A stretch of 33,438 nucleotides of DNA from IMG/VR virus record IMGVR_UViG_2531839440_000004, positions 1 to 33,438 of that record. One strand, written 5' to 3'. Position 1 is the first letter of the stretch. Each line of letters starts with the position of its first letter. Source of the stretch: a virus (lineage: Duplodnaviria > Heunggongvirae > Uroviricota > Caudoviricetes). The position numbers are program-made. Below, piece by piece: positions 19,991 through 25,900 of the stretch.

Positions 19991-22900
19991 AATTCCCGCT
20001 ACCCGCTCCAGCAGAGGACGATGCTAGGCTGTTTCAGGCACTGACACATTATATGTGTGGGATGTTTTACCCTAACTCCTTACCACATCCTGTTCTGTAA
20101 TGAATATTATTTATTACGGTACCAGTGTTGTTTTTTTACAATAGTGGAATGGTGCATTACTGGTGGAGATTTGTATTTCCTGGCAGGGCTGGTAATGTAT
20201 CATTCCGGTGTTGTAAATAACACCCCAGAGACGTTCCTCAGTGCGAGGGTGGTTGAAAGAGTCGGTTTTGCGGGAAACCACAGCATCCATGCAGGACTGG
20301 ATGTTTCGGGAGGCACCCGACGTCTCTGGTCATAATAAAATCATAGTGTTCTCTTCATGCCATTTTATGCCATAGACCGCCACGCCAGGCGGTTTTTTTT
20401 ATTCAGAATTCAGTATTTATGCGGCTCGCTACGGCGGGCCTTTTTCATATCCGCGCCACGCCCGGCGCATATCAAAAACCACAGAGCCTTTCAGGGGTGA
20501 GCTTACGGGATGGTCAGTGTGACTTTCTCTGTGGGCTGGTCACCCCCGGGCGCAGGCCCACCCACTAAGAGGAAACGTCACTATGTTTGGTATTTTCAAA
20601 AAGAAAACCCGCAAGGCCATTACTGAAGTGAAGAAAATGGAGAACCGCGACGCGGTGGAGGCGACCGTCTGGGGTGCATATTCCATTGCATACGCTGACG
20701 GCACCTGTGACGCGAAAGAAATCGCGGTACTGGAAAAAAACCATTGCAGCACTTCCTGTCTTTGCGCCGTTCTCCGGTGAGATTGCACAAATGAGTGCAA
20801 ATATCCGCGCCCGTTATGAAGCGTCGCCGCGTTCTGCCAATGCCGAAGCTCTTCGTCAGCTGGCTGATGTTGCCGGTACTGATGATGCAGTTAATGTGCT
20901 GTGCCTGTGTCTGGATATCGCTGACCAGGACGGTATCGGTCAGGAAGAAGAAGCGCAACTGAAGAAAATTGCGCAGGCGCTGCAGTTGCCGCTGGAGCAG
21001 TACCTGTGAAAAGTGCGCGCCTTGTGCTGGCTGTCATCCTGTTGTTTCTGGTAGTGGTGGTTGATTTCACCGGACGACTGATGTCGGTGCTGGCAGATGG
21101 TGTGCTGGTGGCGATGGCGCTGGTCGTGCTCCGGCCTTTACTGCGTAAATCTGAATAACATCACACAAAAGGCATCTGCGGATGCCTTTGACGGGATGTT
21201 TTTTACGGGTCGCTGGTGGCCCTTTTTTATTTTCAGGAGGAAGTATGTCTGAACCCTTATCCGGTTCCGGCACGGCTGCGGCGCTGGGTGGCGCGACGGT
21301 ATTCGGGCTGTTTACCGGGATGGATTTCGGGATTGTGTTTGGCGCGTTCGCCGGGGCGTTATTTGTGGCAACGATGCCGCAGTCACTTTCAGTCTGGCGC
21401 GTGGTGGCACATTTTCTGGTGTCGTTTATTGTCGGCGTGCTGGGAGCGCGTGTGCTGTCAGCCTGGATTGCATCAAAAACAGGGTATGACGGTACATCAG
21501 CAGATGCGCTTTGCGCGGTGCTGGTCTCGGTTGTGTCGGTGAAGATTCTCTCGTTCATCCACCAGCAGGATATTGCATCGCTGGTGTCCGGTGTGTTCTC
21601 CCGCCTGCGGGGTGGAGGAGGCGGCAATGTTAAGTAACCTTCCCGGATTGCTGAATGTGGTGTTATGCACAGTTATCGTGCTGACGCTCTTTTTTTATCG
21701 TCGCCGTGATTCCAGACATAAACCGCTGGTGTCATGGCTGGCCTGGCTGCTGATGCTGCTGTATGCCTTTGCGCCCCTCAGTTATCTGTGTGGTCGCCCG
21801 TTAGCAACGGGCTGGCTGGAAGTGTTTTTTAACCTGCTGTTCTGCGTGCTGGTGATACGCGCACGCGGGAACGTCACAAAAATCTTTCCATTGTTGAGGT
21901 GAATATGTCGGGTAAATTCAGATTTAGTCGTCGCAGCGAAAAGAATCTGGAGGGCGTTAAACCACAGCTGGTTGCTGTCGTTCGCCGTGCGCTGGAGCTG
22001 ACGGAGGTTGATTTCGGTATTACGGAAGGGCTGCGCACGAAAGAACGCCAGAAACAGCTGGTCGCGGAAGGGAAAAGCCAGACCATGAACAGCCGCCACC
22101 TGACCGGTGATGCGGTGGATGTTGTTGCCTGGGTTGGCAGCCAGGTGTCATGGGACTGGCCTCTGTACGAGAAAATCGCGCAGGCATTTAAGCAGGCTGC
22201 CGCAGAGCTGGGAACTGCCATCGAATGGGGCGGGGACTGGAAAACACTGAAAGACGGACCTCACTTTCAGTTGAAACGCTGATAACCAGGTGTGTTATGA
22301 GCAGAAAACACTGGACACACAGAATACCGCGAGTGGCGGCGAAATGGGCACTGGTAGCGATACTGGTGCCTTTTTTATTGGTGGGATGCGTCAGCCTGGA
22401 TAAGGCGCGCCAGCTTTTCGATACAGCTTCTCAGGTCTGTGAAATTGTCGACGGTGTTCGGCAGTGTATGCAGAACTGATCGCCTGTAATAGCAGAATAT
22501 TTTACTGAAAAATGAAGGGTGCGCCAGCGTCCGGAAAGCATGAAATTCTGCTGCGTGTGCCAATTTTATCTTATTCATCCTAAATCTTGCCGAATCAAGA
22601 TGAACTTTGATCAACTGCCTGGCGGCAAGGGGCATTAAAACAGGAGAAAATTATGTGGAAATCTACAGGTTACAAGTTAATCACCGCGTTGATTGACGGC
22701 AAGCCACAATACTTACGCATTGAAATGAGTGGTCAGCATGCTCGTTTGATTCGTGAGTAACAGGCATTACAGCAGCCCTTCAGTGTGAGGGGCTGCGATA
22801 ATGTCAAAGCTCGTTATCAGCACCCGCCGCGCACCCAGCGCACTGGCCGATAGCGGGCTTTTTTATTCATAAAGCGAGGCTGTATGAGCGAGAAATTGAA

Positions 22901-25900
22901 GATCGTCTATCGCCCGTTACAAGAACTGTCTCCGTATGCACACAACGCCAGGACGCACAGTACTGAGCAGGTGGTACAACTGGTAGAAAGTATTAAGCAA
23001 TTCGGCTGGACTAATCCGGTGCTGATTGACGAAAAGGGCGAAATTATTGCGGGTCACGGTCGTGTTATGGCGGATGAAATGCTCAAAATGGATTCTGTTC
23101 CGGTCATTGTTCTGTCTGGCCTGACGGATGATCAGAAAAAGGCGTACCGCCTGGCAGATAATCGCCTGCCGATGAATGCTAGCTGGGATGAAGATATGTT
23201 ACGGATGGAGCTGTCGGACCTAATCAATGCTGATTTTGATATATCCCTGACAGGATTCAGCCCGACAGAAATTGATGAACTGTTGACGGATGTTTTGCCC
23301 GGTACAGGAAATGAGGAGGAACCGTACACGACGAAAATTGATACGCCTGTTTATGAGCCGTCAGGCGATAAACCGGATATCAGTGAACTGTACGACGATA
23401 CGAAAACTCAGGAGCTGGTCAGCCGGATACGTTCGGCGTCCCTTGAGCCTGATATCGAAAAATTCCTCCTGTGCGCGGCAGAACGTCACACGGTGTTTAA
23501 TTTCAGCAGAATTGCGGACTATTACGCTCACGCACCCGCTGAAATTCAGAGCCTTTTTGAGGAGTCGGCGCAGGTGATCATTGATTATCAGCAGGCTATT
23601 GAAAATGGATTTGTCCGGATGACGCAGCGTATGGTGGAGATCATGCATGGCGGGGAGGAGGAGGAATATGCGTGATGATTTTTGCGCCTTTATTCTGACT
23701 CACGGGCGACCGGACAAAGTTCTGACTTACCGGACGTTGCGTCGTGCTGGCTATACCGGGAAAATTTTTATCGTTGTTGATGATGAAGATAAGACACGGC
23801 ATCAGTACATAGCTGAATTTGGTGAACAGGTGCTGGTGTTTTCCAAAGCTGATATCGCCAGTCGTTTTGACGAAGCCGATAATTTCGGTGACCGCCGCTC
23901 AATTTTTTACGCCCGTAATGCCTGTTTCGACCTGGCAAAACTGGTCGGGTGTAAATACTTCATTCAGCTCGATGATGATTATCACGAGTTCCAGTTTCGG
24001 GTGGATCGCAACTATGACCAGGCCTATTTTCCGATAAGAAAACTGGATGCGATCCTTTCTGAAATGCTGGCGTACTACGAATCAATACCTGCGCTTTCCA
24101 TCGCTATGTCGCAGGGCGGGGATTTTCTTGGTGACAATGGCGGCCATGCTTCGTGGGTGAAACGCAAGGCAATGAACAGCTTTATCTGTTCGGTTGATCG
24201 ACCGTTCTCATTCATGGGACGCATTAACGAGGATGTGAATACATACACGAATCTCGGTCGCTGTGGTGAATTGTTTATGACGATCGGTGCTGTCCAGTTA
24301 GGGCAGAAACAGACGCAGAAAAACAGCGGCGGAATGACCGAGCTGTATCTGGATTCCGGAATCCAAGCATACGCAAAACCGATGACGGTAAACCTTTTTC
24401 AATTGAGGGGCAGGGGGAAGCAGGGGAAAGGGTGGGTGATGTTTTAGTCCGCGCTTTGCAAAAAGCATATCCCAATAAACTTATTGATTGCACAGTCAGC
24501 GACAACCTGGTTTTGCCAGAGCCGTGGACGGGCAAATATACGGAGATTGGTACGCTGGCTATGGTCGTAAAAAACGCCTCTATTGCGATGATGCGTAATG
24601 AAAGGTATAGCGGAATCGCCATCAGTATTCTTTCCGACAGAATACGAATCTACGATAACGCATCGGCAAAGTGGGGTGAGCCAAAAACAATTCATGCCCA
24701 TGAACTGGTCGGGCAGCCGACATGGATAGCGCCGTTTACCGTCAGTTTCAAATGCCCTATGAGAGGCGATATCAGATGTGGTGATGTGATTAAACTGCCG
24801 GAGGGGCTATATTCTGGCGCTGCGTCGATTGTGATGGCTAATACAACGGCACCCAGCGTTATCGCAAAAAATTCGACCACGTTCACCGGGAAATTTCTTG
24901 TGAAATCAGTCAGACACATTGGTTCGTATCTGACAGCCGATGGCGATGCCTGGGTGACGGTATTTGAGGCATATGCTGAGAACTGGGCGAGGGTGTAATG
25001 TCAAACGCTCAAAAATTACCGTTTCTCCGAACACTGTCGGAGATGATGACCAGTTCTGGTAACCAGCAAGCCGAGCTTAAAGGCCGCGAATTGCCCTGCC
25101 ATGTTGTTGATATCTGCGGGCAAATAGTGACAGTTCAGTTTGATATGCTGCCGGAGGGGATCAACTTCCCGCAGATAACAATCCCTGTCGCCACATTCCC
25201 GTATATCCGTTACCCGATACAGCCGGGCGATCGAGGAGTAACAATTGCCGCTGATGTATCACTGCGCGGTGTGTCCGGATTGGGAACCGGTATGGCAACG
25301 CTTTCTTACTCGATGTCGCTCACTCCCCTGTTTTTCGTGCCACTGGCAAACAAGGAGTGGTCCGACGAAGATCCGCAAAAAATCGTTTTGTACGGTCCGG
25401 ATGGCGCGATCCTCAAAACAGAGGACGGCAGTAGCTCGGTAATGGTGGCTCTGGAAGAAATCAGGCAAAAGTCGAAAGCTGTTTACCTCGAGGCCGAAGA
25501 TATTTTCCTGAACGGGAAAATTCACCTCAACGGACCGATCGTCCAGGACAAAGCCCAGATGAAGGATACAACCGCTTCGCTGATTGGTCCTCTTAATGTC
25601 GAGATGGATGCAGTTATCAACGGCGTGAGCGTCAGCGGCCACAGCCACGATGTGACTGGTGTTCAAAGCGGCGGCAGCACGATCACGTCGAAGCAACCAA
25701 ATCCGGGTTAATTCCGGTTCATTTCACTTTAAATTCTATCCATAAAGCGAAAGCCCCGAACTGTTGCAGCAGTCGGGGCTTTTTGTTTCTGACCTTGAAT
25801 AAGGCAAGGAGAAGTCGTGTTTGATTTTAGCAAACTGATTCGGGAGATTCGAGTTATGGCTGAAAAATTATCCACCTGGAAGTTTTTGCTTATTTGGTTG

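What the first reader, a model, noticed from the sequence alone, without database searches (positions are those of the whole stretch)
22884..24447. ParB-like nuclease-domain gene coupled to a gene with DXD-type acidic motifs: possible DNA-modification pair
The ParB-like gene (22884-23675) overlaps by 8 nt a 259-aa gene with a very strong ribosome-binding site and motifs IFIVVDDEDK and QLDDDY, which resemble the DXD signature of nucleotide-sugar transferases. ParB-like proteins in phages are often linked to DNA modification or packaging. The pair sits where head genes would be expected, so it may instead be a divergent packaging module. The inference is weak because short acidic motifs are not specific.
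Basis: inference. Interest (0 to 1): 0.45.

Follow-up and report, generated by a model that had tools for sequence, protein, structure and literature searches.

The report
Truncated phage ParB–glycosyltransferase gene pair
The two genes are a real, widely conserved phage pair (a ParB-like protein plus a sugar-transferring enzyme that normally sits just before the DNA-packaging genes), but here the enzyme gene is cut off by a 16-kb deletion in a decayed prophage, so it is an ordinary dead remnant of a module whose target is still unknown.

Summary
A 263-aa ParB/Srx-fold gene (22884-23675) overlaps by 8 nt a 259-aa ORF (23668-24447) that has a strong Shine-Dalgarno and both acidic motifs.

The second protein is a GT-A glycosyltransferase of Pfam TAGT (PF20691, E 1e-34). 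QLDDDY is its invariant DXD motif.

The ORF is a chimera. Only residues 1-231 are glycosyltransferase. At 24361/24362 a 16,213-bp deletion joins it out of frame to the middle of a baseplate-hub gene. The deletion removed terS, terL, the head genes and most tail genes. The lost C-terminal ~55 residues are invariant from E. coli prophages to a Lactobacillus phage and a haloarchaeal virus, so this copy is probably dead. This explains why the pair sits where head genes were expected.

In intact relatives the pair is obligate (159/159 loci) and lies directly upstream of terminases of several unrelated families. The conserved partner is an unannotated ~120-aa domain at the C-terminus of the ParB-like protein, which also occurs as a stand-alone gene. 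No TET, methyltransferase or hydroxymethylase accompanies the pair, so the acceptor is unknown.

Side observation: independent prophage deletions recurrently start at this same site.

The parts
22884..23675 (+). ParB-like gene (ynaK-type), 263 aa, intact
   Evidence: ORF. phrog_620 at 4e-87. Pfam ParB_N scores 25.3 bits, just under its cut-off of 26.3. A profile hits Noc/ParB chains in PDB at E 3.5e-5. Foldseek matches Noc, ParB, KorB, Srx and SerK at probability 1.0. It is 95% identical to intact E. coli copies.
22884..23288 (+). ParB/Srx N-terminal domain (aa 1-135) with GHGR in place of the GERRxR CTP-binding motif
   Evidence: Alignment to Noc: EIIAGERRWRA against EIIAGHGRVMA. The same module is the N-terminus of ParB-DNA-methyltransferase fusions: phrog_498 at 2.9e-49, PADLOC MTase_II at 9e-37, and 492 phage records, many annotated as methylases.
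23307..23672 (+). Unannotated conserved 'partner' domain (aa ~142-263): YTxKIxxPxYEPxGxxP ... AAERHTVFNF..IADYYAHA ... SALVIIDY..AIENGFV, with an acidic tail
   Evidence: It is the best-conserved part of the protein in distant homologues. It has no credible Pfam or PDB match. It exists as a stand-alone 125-137-aa protein (3942 hits). In 3/3 loci examined that stand-alone gene lies directly upstream of a TAGT gene.
23654..23667 (+). Shine-Dalgarno run GGAGGAGGAGGAAT for the glycosyltransferase, inside the end of the ParB-like gene; 8-nt overlap 23668-23675
   Evidence: Sequence. The overlap is conserved in relatives.
23668..24360 (+). TAGT-family GT-A glycosyltransferase, residues 1-231 only (3'-truncated; intact homologues are 285-310 aa)
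   Evidence: Pfam PF20691 at 1.2e-34, residues 8-222. phrog_842 at 5e-86. Alignment to the 310-aa homologues. Invariant motifs. GT-A fold.
23971..23979 (+). DXD motif codons (D102-D103-D104 of QLDDDY)
   Evidence: Invariant in alignments A1, A2 and A6.
24359..24362 (.). Deletion junction (GT ...GATTCCGGAA | TCCAAGC... hub), 2-nt AA microhomology; 16,213 bp missing relative to the intact prophage
   Evidence: Base-by-base comparison with both parents. Colinearity with E. coli F9792 prophage locus L004, positions 23862 to 40076. The exact 41-mer occurs in two further isolate-derived IMG/VR contigs. No complete E. coli genome spans it.
24361..24447 (+). 28-codon tail of the 259-aa ORF: baseplate-hub DNA read out of frame
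   Evidence: Three-frame translation against the hub protein of PP818812 gp59.
24362..24998 (+). 5'-truncated baseplate-hub gene (codons ~124-335 of 335; ORF finder lists 24432-24998)
   Evidence: 97% DNA identity to PP818812 gp59 from its codon 124 onward. phrog_196 baseplate hub, profile positions 216-365 of 536.
21182..22479 (+). Upstream lysis cassette (holins, M15 endolysin 21899-22282, small lipoprotein-like ORF), which places the pair in the late operon
   Evidence: Pfam Peptidase_M15_4 and phrog_465 endolysin. Annotation of the colinear intact prophages.

Best explanation
The locus is the decayed remnant of a two-gene phage module in a degraded Rac-family prophage.

Gene 1 encodes a ParB/Srx-fold N-domain fused to a conserved, unannotated ~120-aa partner domain. 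Gene 2, translationally coupled to it, encodes a TAGT-family GT-A (DXD, metal-dependent) glycosyltransferase.

In intact relatives the pair is the last thing before terS/terL in the late operon. In cos phage c5 it is the first pair of genes after cos.

Inferred mechanism of the intact module: the partner domain is the enzyme's obligate cofactor or adaptor. The ParB/Srx domain is the same module that is fused to DNA methyltransferases in other phages, and it brings the enzyme to phage DNA late in infection, around packaging. The enzyme then transfers a sugar from a nucleotide-sugar donor to a hydroxyl acceptor. Because this lineage encodes no hydroxymethyl-base pathway, the acceptor is not identified.

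In this window an illegitimate (2-nt microhomology) 16.2-kb deletion removed the enzyme's invariant, basic C-terminal segment (GTYVKSFYS...PSC...RIHH..W) together with the terminase, head genes and most tail genes. The glycosyltransferase is therefore most likely inactive and the pair does nothing here.

Shown: identity, fold, truncation, synteny, obligate pairing. Inferred: DNA targeting, the role of the partner domain, loss of activity.
For: Identity and fold: for the glycosyltransferase; for the ParB-like protein.

Truncation and deletion:
- establish the junction and the missing DNA.
- The intact prophage has a 310-aa glycosyltransferase followed by a 69-aa gene, terS, terL and so on.
- The lost segment contains invariant G231, T232, Y233, K235, F237, Y238, P244, R258, H260, H261 and W265.
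- That segment is conserved at 39-43% overall identity in Lactobacillus phage c5 and halovirus HHTV-2.
- It is strongly basic, pI about 10.

Prophage decay:
- Four IS1 copies and further deletions.
- The ParB copy carries A64D and L230Q at columns identical in the 36 other sequences aligned.

Obligate pairing and position:
- 159/159 loci have the ParB-like ORF overlapping the glycosyltransferase start.
- Downstream terminases belong to Terminase_2, Terminase_3 (with an intein), Terminase_6N, TerL_ATPase/nuclease and HNH+Terminase_4.
- In c5, cos is at 1-11, ORF1 is ParB-like, ORF2 is the glycosyltransferase and terL starts at 2199.

Partner domain.

Link to DNA-modifying enzymes:
- The ParB N-domain equals the N-domain of methyltransferase fusions.
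- Family members are fused to SAM-methyltransferase, P-loop kinase, sulfotransferase-like and second glycosyltransferase domains.
- Stand-alone-partner loci sit among DnaB, N6_N4 methyltransferase, SNF2-methyltransferase and radical SAM genes.
- GT-A enzymes that the preprint places with base-J JGT, the relatives of the TAGT family, glycosylate 5hmC in DNA (PMC8256090; bioRxiv 10.1101/2023.12.21.572611).
Against: No TET/JBP, DNA methyltransferase, thymidylate-synthase-like hydroxymethylase or other acceptor-generating enzyme is present in the window or in a complete Rac-like phage record. The only acceptors experimentally known for relatives of this family are therefore unavailable.

The ParB-like protein is very acidic (pI 4.4, N-domain 4.6). 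It lacks the GERRxR arginine patch and scores just below Pfam's ParB_N cut-off, so DNA binding is not demonstrated.

The Pfam TAGT model itself (205 positions) is fully covered by residues 8-222. Loss of activity is inferred from conservation, not shown.

The AlphaFold model is only moderately confident in the C-terminal third (pLDDT 44-68).

No experimental paper on this pair was found. The key computational paper (Iyer et al. 2013, NAR) is not in the library.
Confidence: 0.6

Rival explanations
1. The intact module glycosylates a protein rather than DNA. Candidate acceptors are the invariant Tyr/Thr-rich motif of its own partner (PYTxKIxxPxYEPxG), a packaging or virion protein, or a host protein. 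The position next to the terminase would then reflect late timing only.
For: No hydroxymethyl-base pathway is encoded. The closest solved folds include protein- and peptide-glycosylating GT-A enzymes: glycogenin, LH3/ColGalT1, SunS/ThuS. The animal family member GREB1 O-GlcNAcylates a protein (PMC7968844). The invariant YTxKIxxPxYEP motif lies in a segment that AlphaFold predicts to be disordered (pLDDT below 50 at residues 136-157). The partner is acidic, unlike a typical DNA binder.
Against: The N-domain is the module fused to DNA methyltransferases. Stand-alone-partner loci lie among DNA-metabolism genes. Validated phage members act on DNA (PMC8256090). The glycosyltransferase's C-terminal segment is strongly basic.
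Confidence: 0.22
2. The truncated 259-aa chimera is still an active glycosyltransferase, and the pair is a working domesticated function in this host.
For: The Pfam TAGT model is fully covered (residues 8-222). All N-terminal catalytic motifs are intact. The ParB-like gene is full length with its translational coupling preserved. The same junction is kept in at least two other isolates.
Against: Eleven invariant residues, including RxHH, are lost, and they are conserved across bacteria and archaea. The replacement tail is out-of-frame hub sequence. The prophage shows general decay: IS1 x4, other deletions, a frameshifted TerB gene. The ParB copy carries unusual substitutions at conserved columns.
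Confidence: 0.08
3. The pair is part of the packaging machinery itself. The ParB-like protein would be a pac/cos recognition or nicking accessory, as HNH proteins are in some cos phages, with the glycosyltransferase as a passenger.
For: The position immediately upstream of terS/terL is constant across at least four unrelated terminase families, and next to cos in c5. The domain is often annotated 'ParB-like nuclease'. Deletion breakpoints cluster inside these two genes.
Against: There is no similarity to terminase, portal or HNH families. Most phages with the same terminase types lack the pair. The glycosyltransferase is as conserved as the partner and never absent. In larger phages the partner and glycosyltransferase sit far from packaging genes and 3 kb upstream of terL in HHTV-2. 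There is no synonymous-site conservation indicating an embedded pac site.
Confidence: 0.06
4. The module is a lysogenic-conversion or defence moron. It would modify a host surface polymer, or invading DNA, to exclude other phages.
For: Prophage glycosyltransferases commonly remodel surface glycans. The preprint raises anti-phage hypermodification by prophage glycosyltransferases as a possibility (bioRxiv 10.1101/2023.12.21.572611). The pair lies in a region where morons such as trkG are inserted.
Against: There is no signal peptide, membrane segment or Gtr-type partner. There is no PADLOC hit for the glycosyltransferase or the small downstream gene. The pair is tightly packed with terS in the late operon, not separately transcribed. 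It is also present in lytic-type and archaeal viruses.
Confidence: 0.04

Closest known systems
TAGT family (TET/JBP-associated glycosyltransferases, Pfam PF20691), defined computationally by Iyer et al. 2013; related enzymes that have been tested are phage GT-A enzymes that glycosylate 5hmC and the kinetoplastid base-J glucosyltransferase JGT
   Same: Strong profile match. GT-A fold. Conserved R...DDD...ED active-site pattern (motif as described in bioRxiv 10.1101/2023.12.21.572611). Phage-encoded. Association with ParB proteins and terminase already noted in the literature (PMC8256090; preprint).
   Different: No TET/JBP (5mYOX), C5-methyltransferase or ThyS partner in the window or intact relatives, so the known acceptors (5hmC, 5hmU) are not made. 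The obligate partner is instead a ParB/Srx plus novel-domain protein. This copy is truncated at residue 231.
ParB-domain / DNA methyltransferase fusion proteins of phages (phrog_498; PADLOC MTase_II model)
   Same: The N-terminal ~140 residues are homologous (2.9e-49 and 9e-37). They are widespread in phage genomes, and in some records lie near one end of the deposited sequence. The logic is the same: a ParB/Srx module combined with a nucleic-acid-modifying catalytic unit.
   Different: Here the catalytic unit is a separate, translationally coupled glycosyltransferase rather than a fused methyltransferase. A distinct ~120-aa domain replaces the methyltransferase.
ynaK of the E. coli K-12 Rac prophage
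   Same: Same gene family, same prophage family and same position after the lysis/trkG region. RefSeq names intact copies ynaK.
   Different: K-12 keeps only about the first 85 codons of ynaK and no glycosyltransferase (match ends at query position 404). The window keeps a full ParB-like gene and 231 codons of the glycosyltransferase. K-12 ydaY is a tail-chaperone fragment, not the glycosyltransferase, which corrects my initial recollection.
Chromosomal and plasmid ParB / Noc / KorB CTPase clamps (ParABS partition)
   Same: ParB/Srx fold of the N-domain. Best sequence-profile and Foldseek hits are Noc, ParB and KorB.
   Different: GERRxR is replaced by GHGRVM. There is no ParA. No recognisable HTH/parS module was shown. 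The protein is acidic. It is not a partition system.
T4 alpha- and beta-glucosyltransferases
   Same: Possible functional analogy: phage enzymes that put sugars on phage DNA.
   Different: The T4 enzymes are GT-B fold and act on pre-replicatively made 5hmC. There is no homology. The RefSeq/PHROG label 'beta-glucosyl-HMC-alpha-glucosyltransferase' on relatives is an annotation transfer, not a tested function.

Membership tests
TAGT (PF20691) GT-A glycosyltransferases | Significant match to the family profile above the curated cut-off | tested here: met
   120.5 bits against a cut-off of 27.5, E 1.2e-34, profile positions 4-205 of 205.
TAGT (PF20691) GT-A glycosyltransferases | GT-A (single Rossmann-like) fold | tested here: met
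   AlphaFold model of the 99%-identical 310-aa homologue: pLDDT 73.5, above 90 over most of residues 1-150. Foldseek matches GnT-I, SpsA, glycogenin and LH3 at probability 0.99-1.0 and TM 0.3-0.41.
TAGT (PF20691) GT-A glycosyltransferases | Active-site pattern R ... DDD ... ED(Y/F) | tested here: met
   R14, D102-D103-D104 and E188-D189 are invariant. The residue after ED is V, not Y/F. The pattern is as described in the preprint.
TAGT (PF20691) GT-A glycosyltransferases | Complete conserved enzyme, including the C-terminal GTYxKSFYS...PSC...RIHH..W segment | tested here: not met
   The window copy ends its glycosyltransferase sequence at G231. The missing segment is invariant in the family.
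TAGT (PF20691) GT-A glycosyltransferases | Genomic association with a TET/JBP dioxygenase or another source of hydroxymethyl-pyrimidine | tested here: not met
   None among the window ORFs, in the complete Rac-like phage record or in the flanks of the diverse loci examined.
TAGT (PF20691) GT-A glycosyltransferases | Sugar transfer to a base in DNA | not testable with these tools
   Needs enzyme assays or nucleoside mass spectrometry.
ParB/Srx superfamily | ParB/Srx fold of the N-terminal domain | tested here: met
   A profile hits Noc and ParB chains at E 3.5e-5. Foldseek matches Noc, ParB, PadC, KorB, Srx and SerK at probability 1.0. Pfam ParB_N alone is borderline: 25.3 bits against 26.3.
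ParB CTPase clamps / ParABS partition systems | GERRxR nucleotide-binding arginine patch | tested here: not met
   The aligned motif is GHGRVM, with a single Arg.
ParB CTPase clamps / ParABS partition systems | Cognate ParA ATPase and parS centromere | tested here: not met
   No ParA-like gene is annotated next to the pair in the relatives whose annotation was inspected. The TTCCGGAA palindrome in the glycosyltransferase gene is not conserved outside the E. coli lineage.
Phage DNA-packaging proteins (terminase, portal, HNH accessory) | Homology to a terminase, portal or HNH family | tested here: not met
   No such Pfam or PHROG hit for either protein. The real terS and terL lie downstream in intact relatives.
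Known anti-phage defence systems (PADLOC) | Match to a defence-system protein model | tested here: not met
   The glycosyltransferase and the small downstream protein have no hit. The ParB-like protein hits only the ParB-type N-terminus of a type II methyltransferase model.

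The most novel reading that the evidence does not exclude
The ParB/partner-domain plus TAGT module of temperate phages that lack any TET or hydroxymethylase carries out a packaging-coupled glycosylation of an acceptor not yet known for phages. The acceptor could be an unmodified DNA moiety or a packaging or virion protein. The unannotated ~120-aa partner domain would be the specificity or activating subunit. Separately, the recurrent deletion breakpoints at CCGGAN inside these two genes could mark a site-specific DNA break made by a phage or host factor, possibly the ParB-like 'nuclease' itself.
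Probability: 0.2. Interest if true: 0.7.

Novelty: new member of a known kind. Interest (0 to 1): 0.33.

Why it matters
For this window it matters little. The pair is a pseudogenised remnant in a decaying Rac-type prophage, and the puzzling position is explained by a deletion.

For the module in general there is an open, testable question. A two-gene unit conserved at about 40% identity from enterobacterial prophages to Lactobacillus phages and a haloarchaeal virus always pairs an unannotated domain with a DNA-glycosyltransferase-family enzyme, usually just before the terminase. Yet it has no known acceptor and no experimental study. It is present in about 30% of complete E. coli genomes (1621 of 5426) and in easily handled phages such as c5, so the chemistry could be tested directly by nucleoside mass spectrometry and knockouts.

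Tried and rejected
- **pac site or parS-like site at the breakpoint.** I tested whether a pac site or parS-like site overlaps the glycosyltransferase gene there. Synonymous-site conservation along both genes is flat. The TTCCGGAA palindrome is absent outside the E. coli lineage. There is no unusual DNA hairpin (z -0.37 and -0.12). Rejected as a family-wide element; a lineage-specific site is not excluded.
- **CCGGA as a sufficient hot-spot motif.** Seven CCGGA sites occur in the two genes. Two are strongly hot, two more coincide with single junctions, one detectable site had none, and two were out of detection range. Suggestive only.
- **Pin/Hin-type invertase quasi-sites.** Considered from memory of crossover-site sequences. 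Most junctions lie 2-4 nt from the would-be core, so this is not supported.
- **Sequence search of PDB** with the glycosyltransferase profile and with the partner-domain profile: nothing meaningful.
- **Pfam on the partner domain:** nothing.
- **NCBIfam:** no model for the glycosyltransferase.
- **afdb50 fold library:** unavailable.
- **Iyer et al. 2013 (NAR 41:7635):** could not be read by DOI or PMC id. Its content is cited only through PMC8256090.
- **Exact junction 41-mer:** absent from GTDB representative genomes and from plasmids.
- **My recollection that K-12 ydaY is the glycosyltransferase fragment** was wrong.
- **Source organism of the window:** not established. Four IS1 copies hint at a Shigella-like or IS1-rich Escherichia genome, but this was not tested.

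Full report
**1. Observation**

The ORF finder lists 22884..23675 (+, 263 aa) and an overlapping ORF ending at 24447. Homologues of the second protein begin MRDDFCAF. Its start is therefore ATG 23668, not the upstream ATG 23647. That gives 259 aa and an 8-nt overlap (ATGCGTGA) with the first gene. A GGAGGAGGAGG run ends 3-4 nt upstream of the start. IFIVVDDEDK is residues 33-42 and QLDDDY is residues 100-105. D38, D41 and D102-D104/Y105 are invariant in 38 homologues.

**2. What the proteins are**

Gene 2 matches Pfam TAGT (TET-associated glycosyltransferase, PF20691) at 120.5 bits, E 1.2e-34, and phrog_842 at 5e-86. RefSeq calls intact copies 'GREB1-related protein'. An AlphaFold model of the 99%-identical 310-aa homologue has mean pLDDT 73.5 and pTM 0.73. 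Foldseek matches it to classical DXD/Mn GT-A enzymes (GnT-I, SpsA, glycogenin, LH3, ColGalT1, SunS/ThuS) at probability about 1. No solved structure is detectable by sequence.

Gene 1 is phrog_620 'ParB-like partition protein' at 4e-87.
- Its N-domain has the ParB/Srx fold.
- GHGR replaces the GERRxR CTP-binding patch.
- This N-domain is the same module found at the N-terminus of phage ParB-DNA-methyltransferase fusions: phrog_498 at 2.9e-49, PADLOC MTase_II at 9e-37, and 492 phage records.

**3. The 259-aa ORF is a chimera at a deletion junction**

Similarity to intact phages and to 2593 E. coli genomes stops at window position 24361. From 24360 onward the window matches the middle of a baseplate-hub gene. 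Base-by-base comparison gives GT ...GATTCCGGAA|TCCAAGC... hub, with a 2-nt microhomology and a frame shift.

Against the intact Rac-type prophage at ttcA in E. coli F9792, the window is colinear but lacks 16,213 bp (L004 23862 to 40076). The missing DNA holds the glycosyltransferase 3' end, a 69-aa gene, terS, terL, portal, head genes, tail sheath/tube, tape measure and the first 123 hub codons. The window also carries four IS1 copies and other losses. The exact junction recurs in two isolate-derived IMG/VR contigs, so it is real and not an assembly error.

Only residues 1-231 are glycosyltransferase. The last 28 residues are hub DNA read out of frame.

The lost segment contains invariant G231, T232, Y233, K235, F237, Y238, P244, R258, H260, H261 and W265. 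It is conserved in Lactobacillus phage c5 and in the haloarchaeal virus HHTV-2 and is strongly basic. I infer that the enzyme is inactive here. The His pair may be a metal ligand as in other GT-A enzymes; that is inference from general knowledge of the fold.

This also explains why the pair 'sits where head genes would be expected'.

**4. The module in intact relatives**

- In all 159 fetched loci that encode a relative of the glycosyltransferase (55-100% identity), a ParB-like ORF lies directly upstream and overlaps its start.
- Downstream come, almost always, a small 85-aa gene and then terS, terL, portal and MuF. The terminases belong to at least four unrelated families.
- In cos phage c5 the pair is ORF1/ORF2 immediately after the mapped cos site. 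In HHTV-2 it lies 3 kb upstream of terL.
- The glycosyltransferase also occurs in L. gasseri, Nocardia, Porphyromonas and 190-kb Vibrio phages.
- The family has about 1500 representative clusters at 50% identity.
- The module is present in 1621 of 5426 complete E. coli genomes and is intact through terS in 839.

**5. The true conserved partner**

In distant homologues the ParB N-domain diverges, or, in one ORF that may be cut by the contig start, is missing. The C-terminal ~120 residues stay highly conserved: YTxKIxxPxYEPxGxxP ... AAERHTVFNF..IADYYAHA ... SALVIIDF..AIE.GFV. This domain has no Pfam or PDB counterpart. A profile search finds 3942 proteins, most of the best being stand-alone 125-137-aa proteins.

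In 3 of 3 such loci the stand-alone gene sits directly upstream of a TAGT gene. These loci are in 58-81-kb phage contigs, among DnaB, N6_N4 methyltransferase, SNF2-methyltransferase, radical SAM, polysaccharide deacetylase and GT2 genes.

So the obligate unit is partner domain plus glycosyltransferase. The ParB/Srx domain is an N-terminal addition typical of the temperate-phage version.

Other family members are fused to SAM-methyltransferase, P-loop kinase, sulfotransferase-like or second glycosyltransferase domains. That fits multi-step modification pathways.

**6. How it most likely works**

Shown: a DXD GT-A enzyme of the DNA-glycosyltransferase family, translationally coupled to an obligate partner, in the late operon next to packaging genes.

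Inferred: the partner is an adaptor or activator. The ParB/Srx domain, by analogy with its methyltransferase fusions and with the suggestion attributed to Aravind and co-workers in PMC8256090, directs the enzyme to phage DNA around packaging. A nucleotide-sugar is the donor.

The weak point is the acceptor. Neither the window nor a complete Rac-like phage encodes TET/JBP, a C5-methyltransferase or a hydroxymethylase. [quoted passage not shown]

A protein acceptor is therefore a serious rival. The supporting points are the GREB1 precedent, the glycogenin- and LH3-like folds, the invariant Tyr/Thr motif in a predicted disordered stretch and the acidic partner.

A packaging-accessory role and a conversion or defence role are less likely, for the reasons given under the rivals.

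**7. Comparison with what is known**

The protein is a member of TAGT by profile, fold and motifs. It fails two features: completeness, and association with a hydroxymethyl-base source. The ParB-like protein has the ParB/Srx fold but is not a ParABS partition protein, because it has no arginine patch and no ParA. ynaK of K-12 Rac is a shorter remnant of the same gene. K-12 ydaY is a tail-chaperone fragment, not the glycosyltransferase.

No experimental study of this pair was found.

**8. Side observation, unexplained**

Chimeric proteins in the public collection show that independent deletions start at the same place as in this window.

- Of 23 distinct junctions detectable in the glycosyltransferase, 14 fall in codons 230-237. 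About 1.3 would be expected if junctions were uniform; P is about 2e-12. The right-hand partners differ: tail fibre, Tfa, tail tube, J, MuF, hub.
- Several of these junctions are in long isolate contigs.
- In the ParB-like gene, 10 of 19 junctions fall in codons 162-166.
- At nucleotide level, four of the five sequenced left ends are compatible with a break right after CCGGAA (GT) and one lies 2 nt short of it; the codon-level ParB junctions point to a break after CCGGAT. Microhomology at the three junctions where both parents were available is 2-5 nt.
- Two isolated junctions (P0161, P0004) also follow CCGGAT.
- No hairpin, synonymous-site constraint or family-wide conservation explains the clustering.

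Clustering of the database at 90% identity and ranking by score could bias which junctions are visible. The statistics are therefore indicative only.

**9. Verdict**

The instance is an ordinary truncated member of a known, computationally described kind. The module itself remains functionally uncharacterised and experimentally accessible.

Noticed in passing
window 24355-24365; L161 22373-22397; proteins P0021-P0044: Independent Rac-type prophage deletions recurrently start at the site where this window's glycosyltransferase is truncated. Fourteen of 23 distinct junctions lie in codons 230-237, joined to many different right-hand partners (tail fibre, Tfa, tube, J, MuF, hub). Four of the five left ends examined at nucleotide level are compatible with a break just after CCGGAA, inside the 8-bp palindrome TTCCGGAA. 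Cause unknown.
   Followed up: partly
window 23370-23385 (ParB codons 162-166); proteins P0203-P0228: There is a second breakpoint cluster in the ParB-like gene, right after AAACCGGAT (the centre of GATATC): 10 of 19 distinct junctions. Two isolated junctions elsewhere (P0161, P0004) also follow CCGGAT.
   Followed up: partly
window 23307-23672; L168 4459-4866, L169 6001-6411, L170 4906-5301: The C-terminal ~120 aa of the ParB-like protein is an unannotated, highly conserved domain with no Pfam or PDB match. It also exists as a stand-alone gene, always directly upstream of a TAGT glycosyltransferase in larger phages. It looks like the real obligate partner of the enzyme.
   Followed up: partly
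window 7783-8550, 12349-13118, 14562-15333, 18348-19120: Four near-identical 768-bp repeats carry a 167-aa ORF (IS1-like) inside the prophage. A 'Beta protein' gene is split into two pieces on opposite strands (13128-13526 + and 15329-16024 -) flanking these copies, which suggests an IS-mediated inversion.
   Followed up: partly
window 26445-27620: A 391-aa ORF with type I restriction-enzyme HSDR_N domains is inserted among the baseplate genes. The intact F9792 prophage has the same gene, annotated 'type I restriction endonuclease'. It is a possible defence moron.
   Followed up: no
proteins P0247, P0254, P0278, P0265, P0266, P0295, P0301, P0287, P0263, P0273: Distant members of the glycosyltransferase family are fused to SAM-methyltransferase, P-loop kinase, sulfotransferase-like or second glycosyltransferase domains. 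This suggests multi-step glycan or hypermodification pathways.
   Followed up: no
L162 3001-4652: One E. coli isolate carries two successive internal deletions in the same prophage: glycosyltransferase codon 232 joined to the MuF-like head gene, which is in turn joined to a tail-fibre-assembly gene fragment next to pinR.
   Followed up: no
window 20583-21009: A TerB-family gene upstream of the holins is split into two overlapping ORFs. The same gene is annotated as frameshifted in the otherwise intact F9792 prophage.
   Followed up: no
L089 7255-9471: In one metagenomic relative, the terminase large subunit downstream of the pair contains an intein (Terminase_3 plus Intein_splicing).
   Followed up: no
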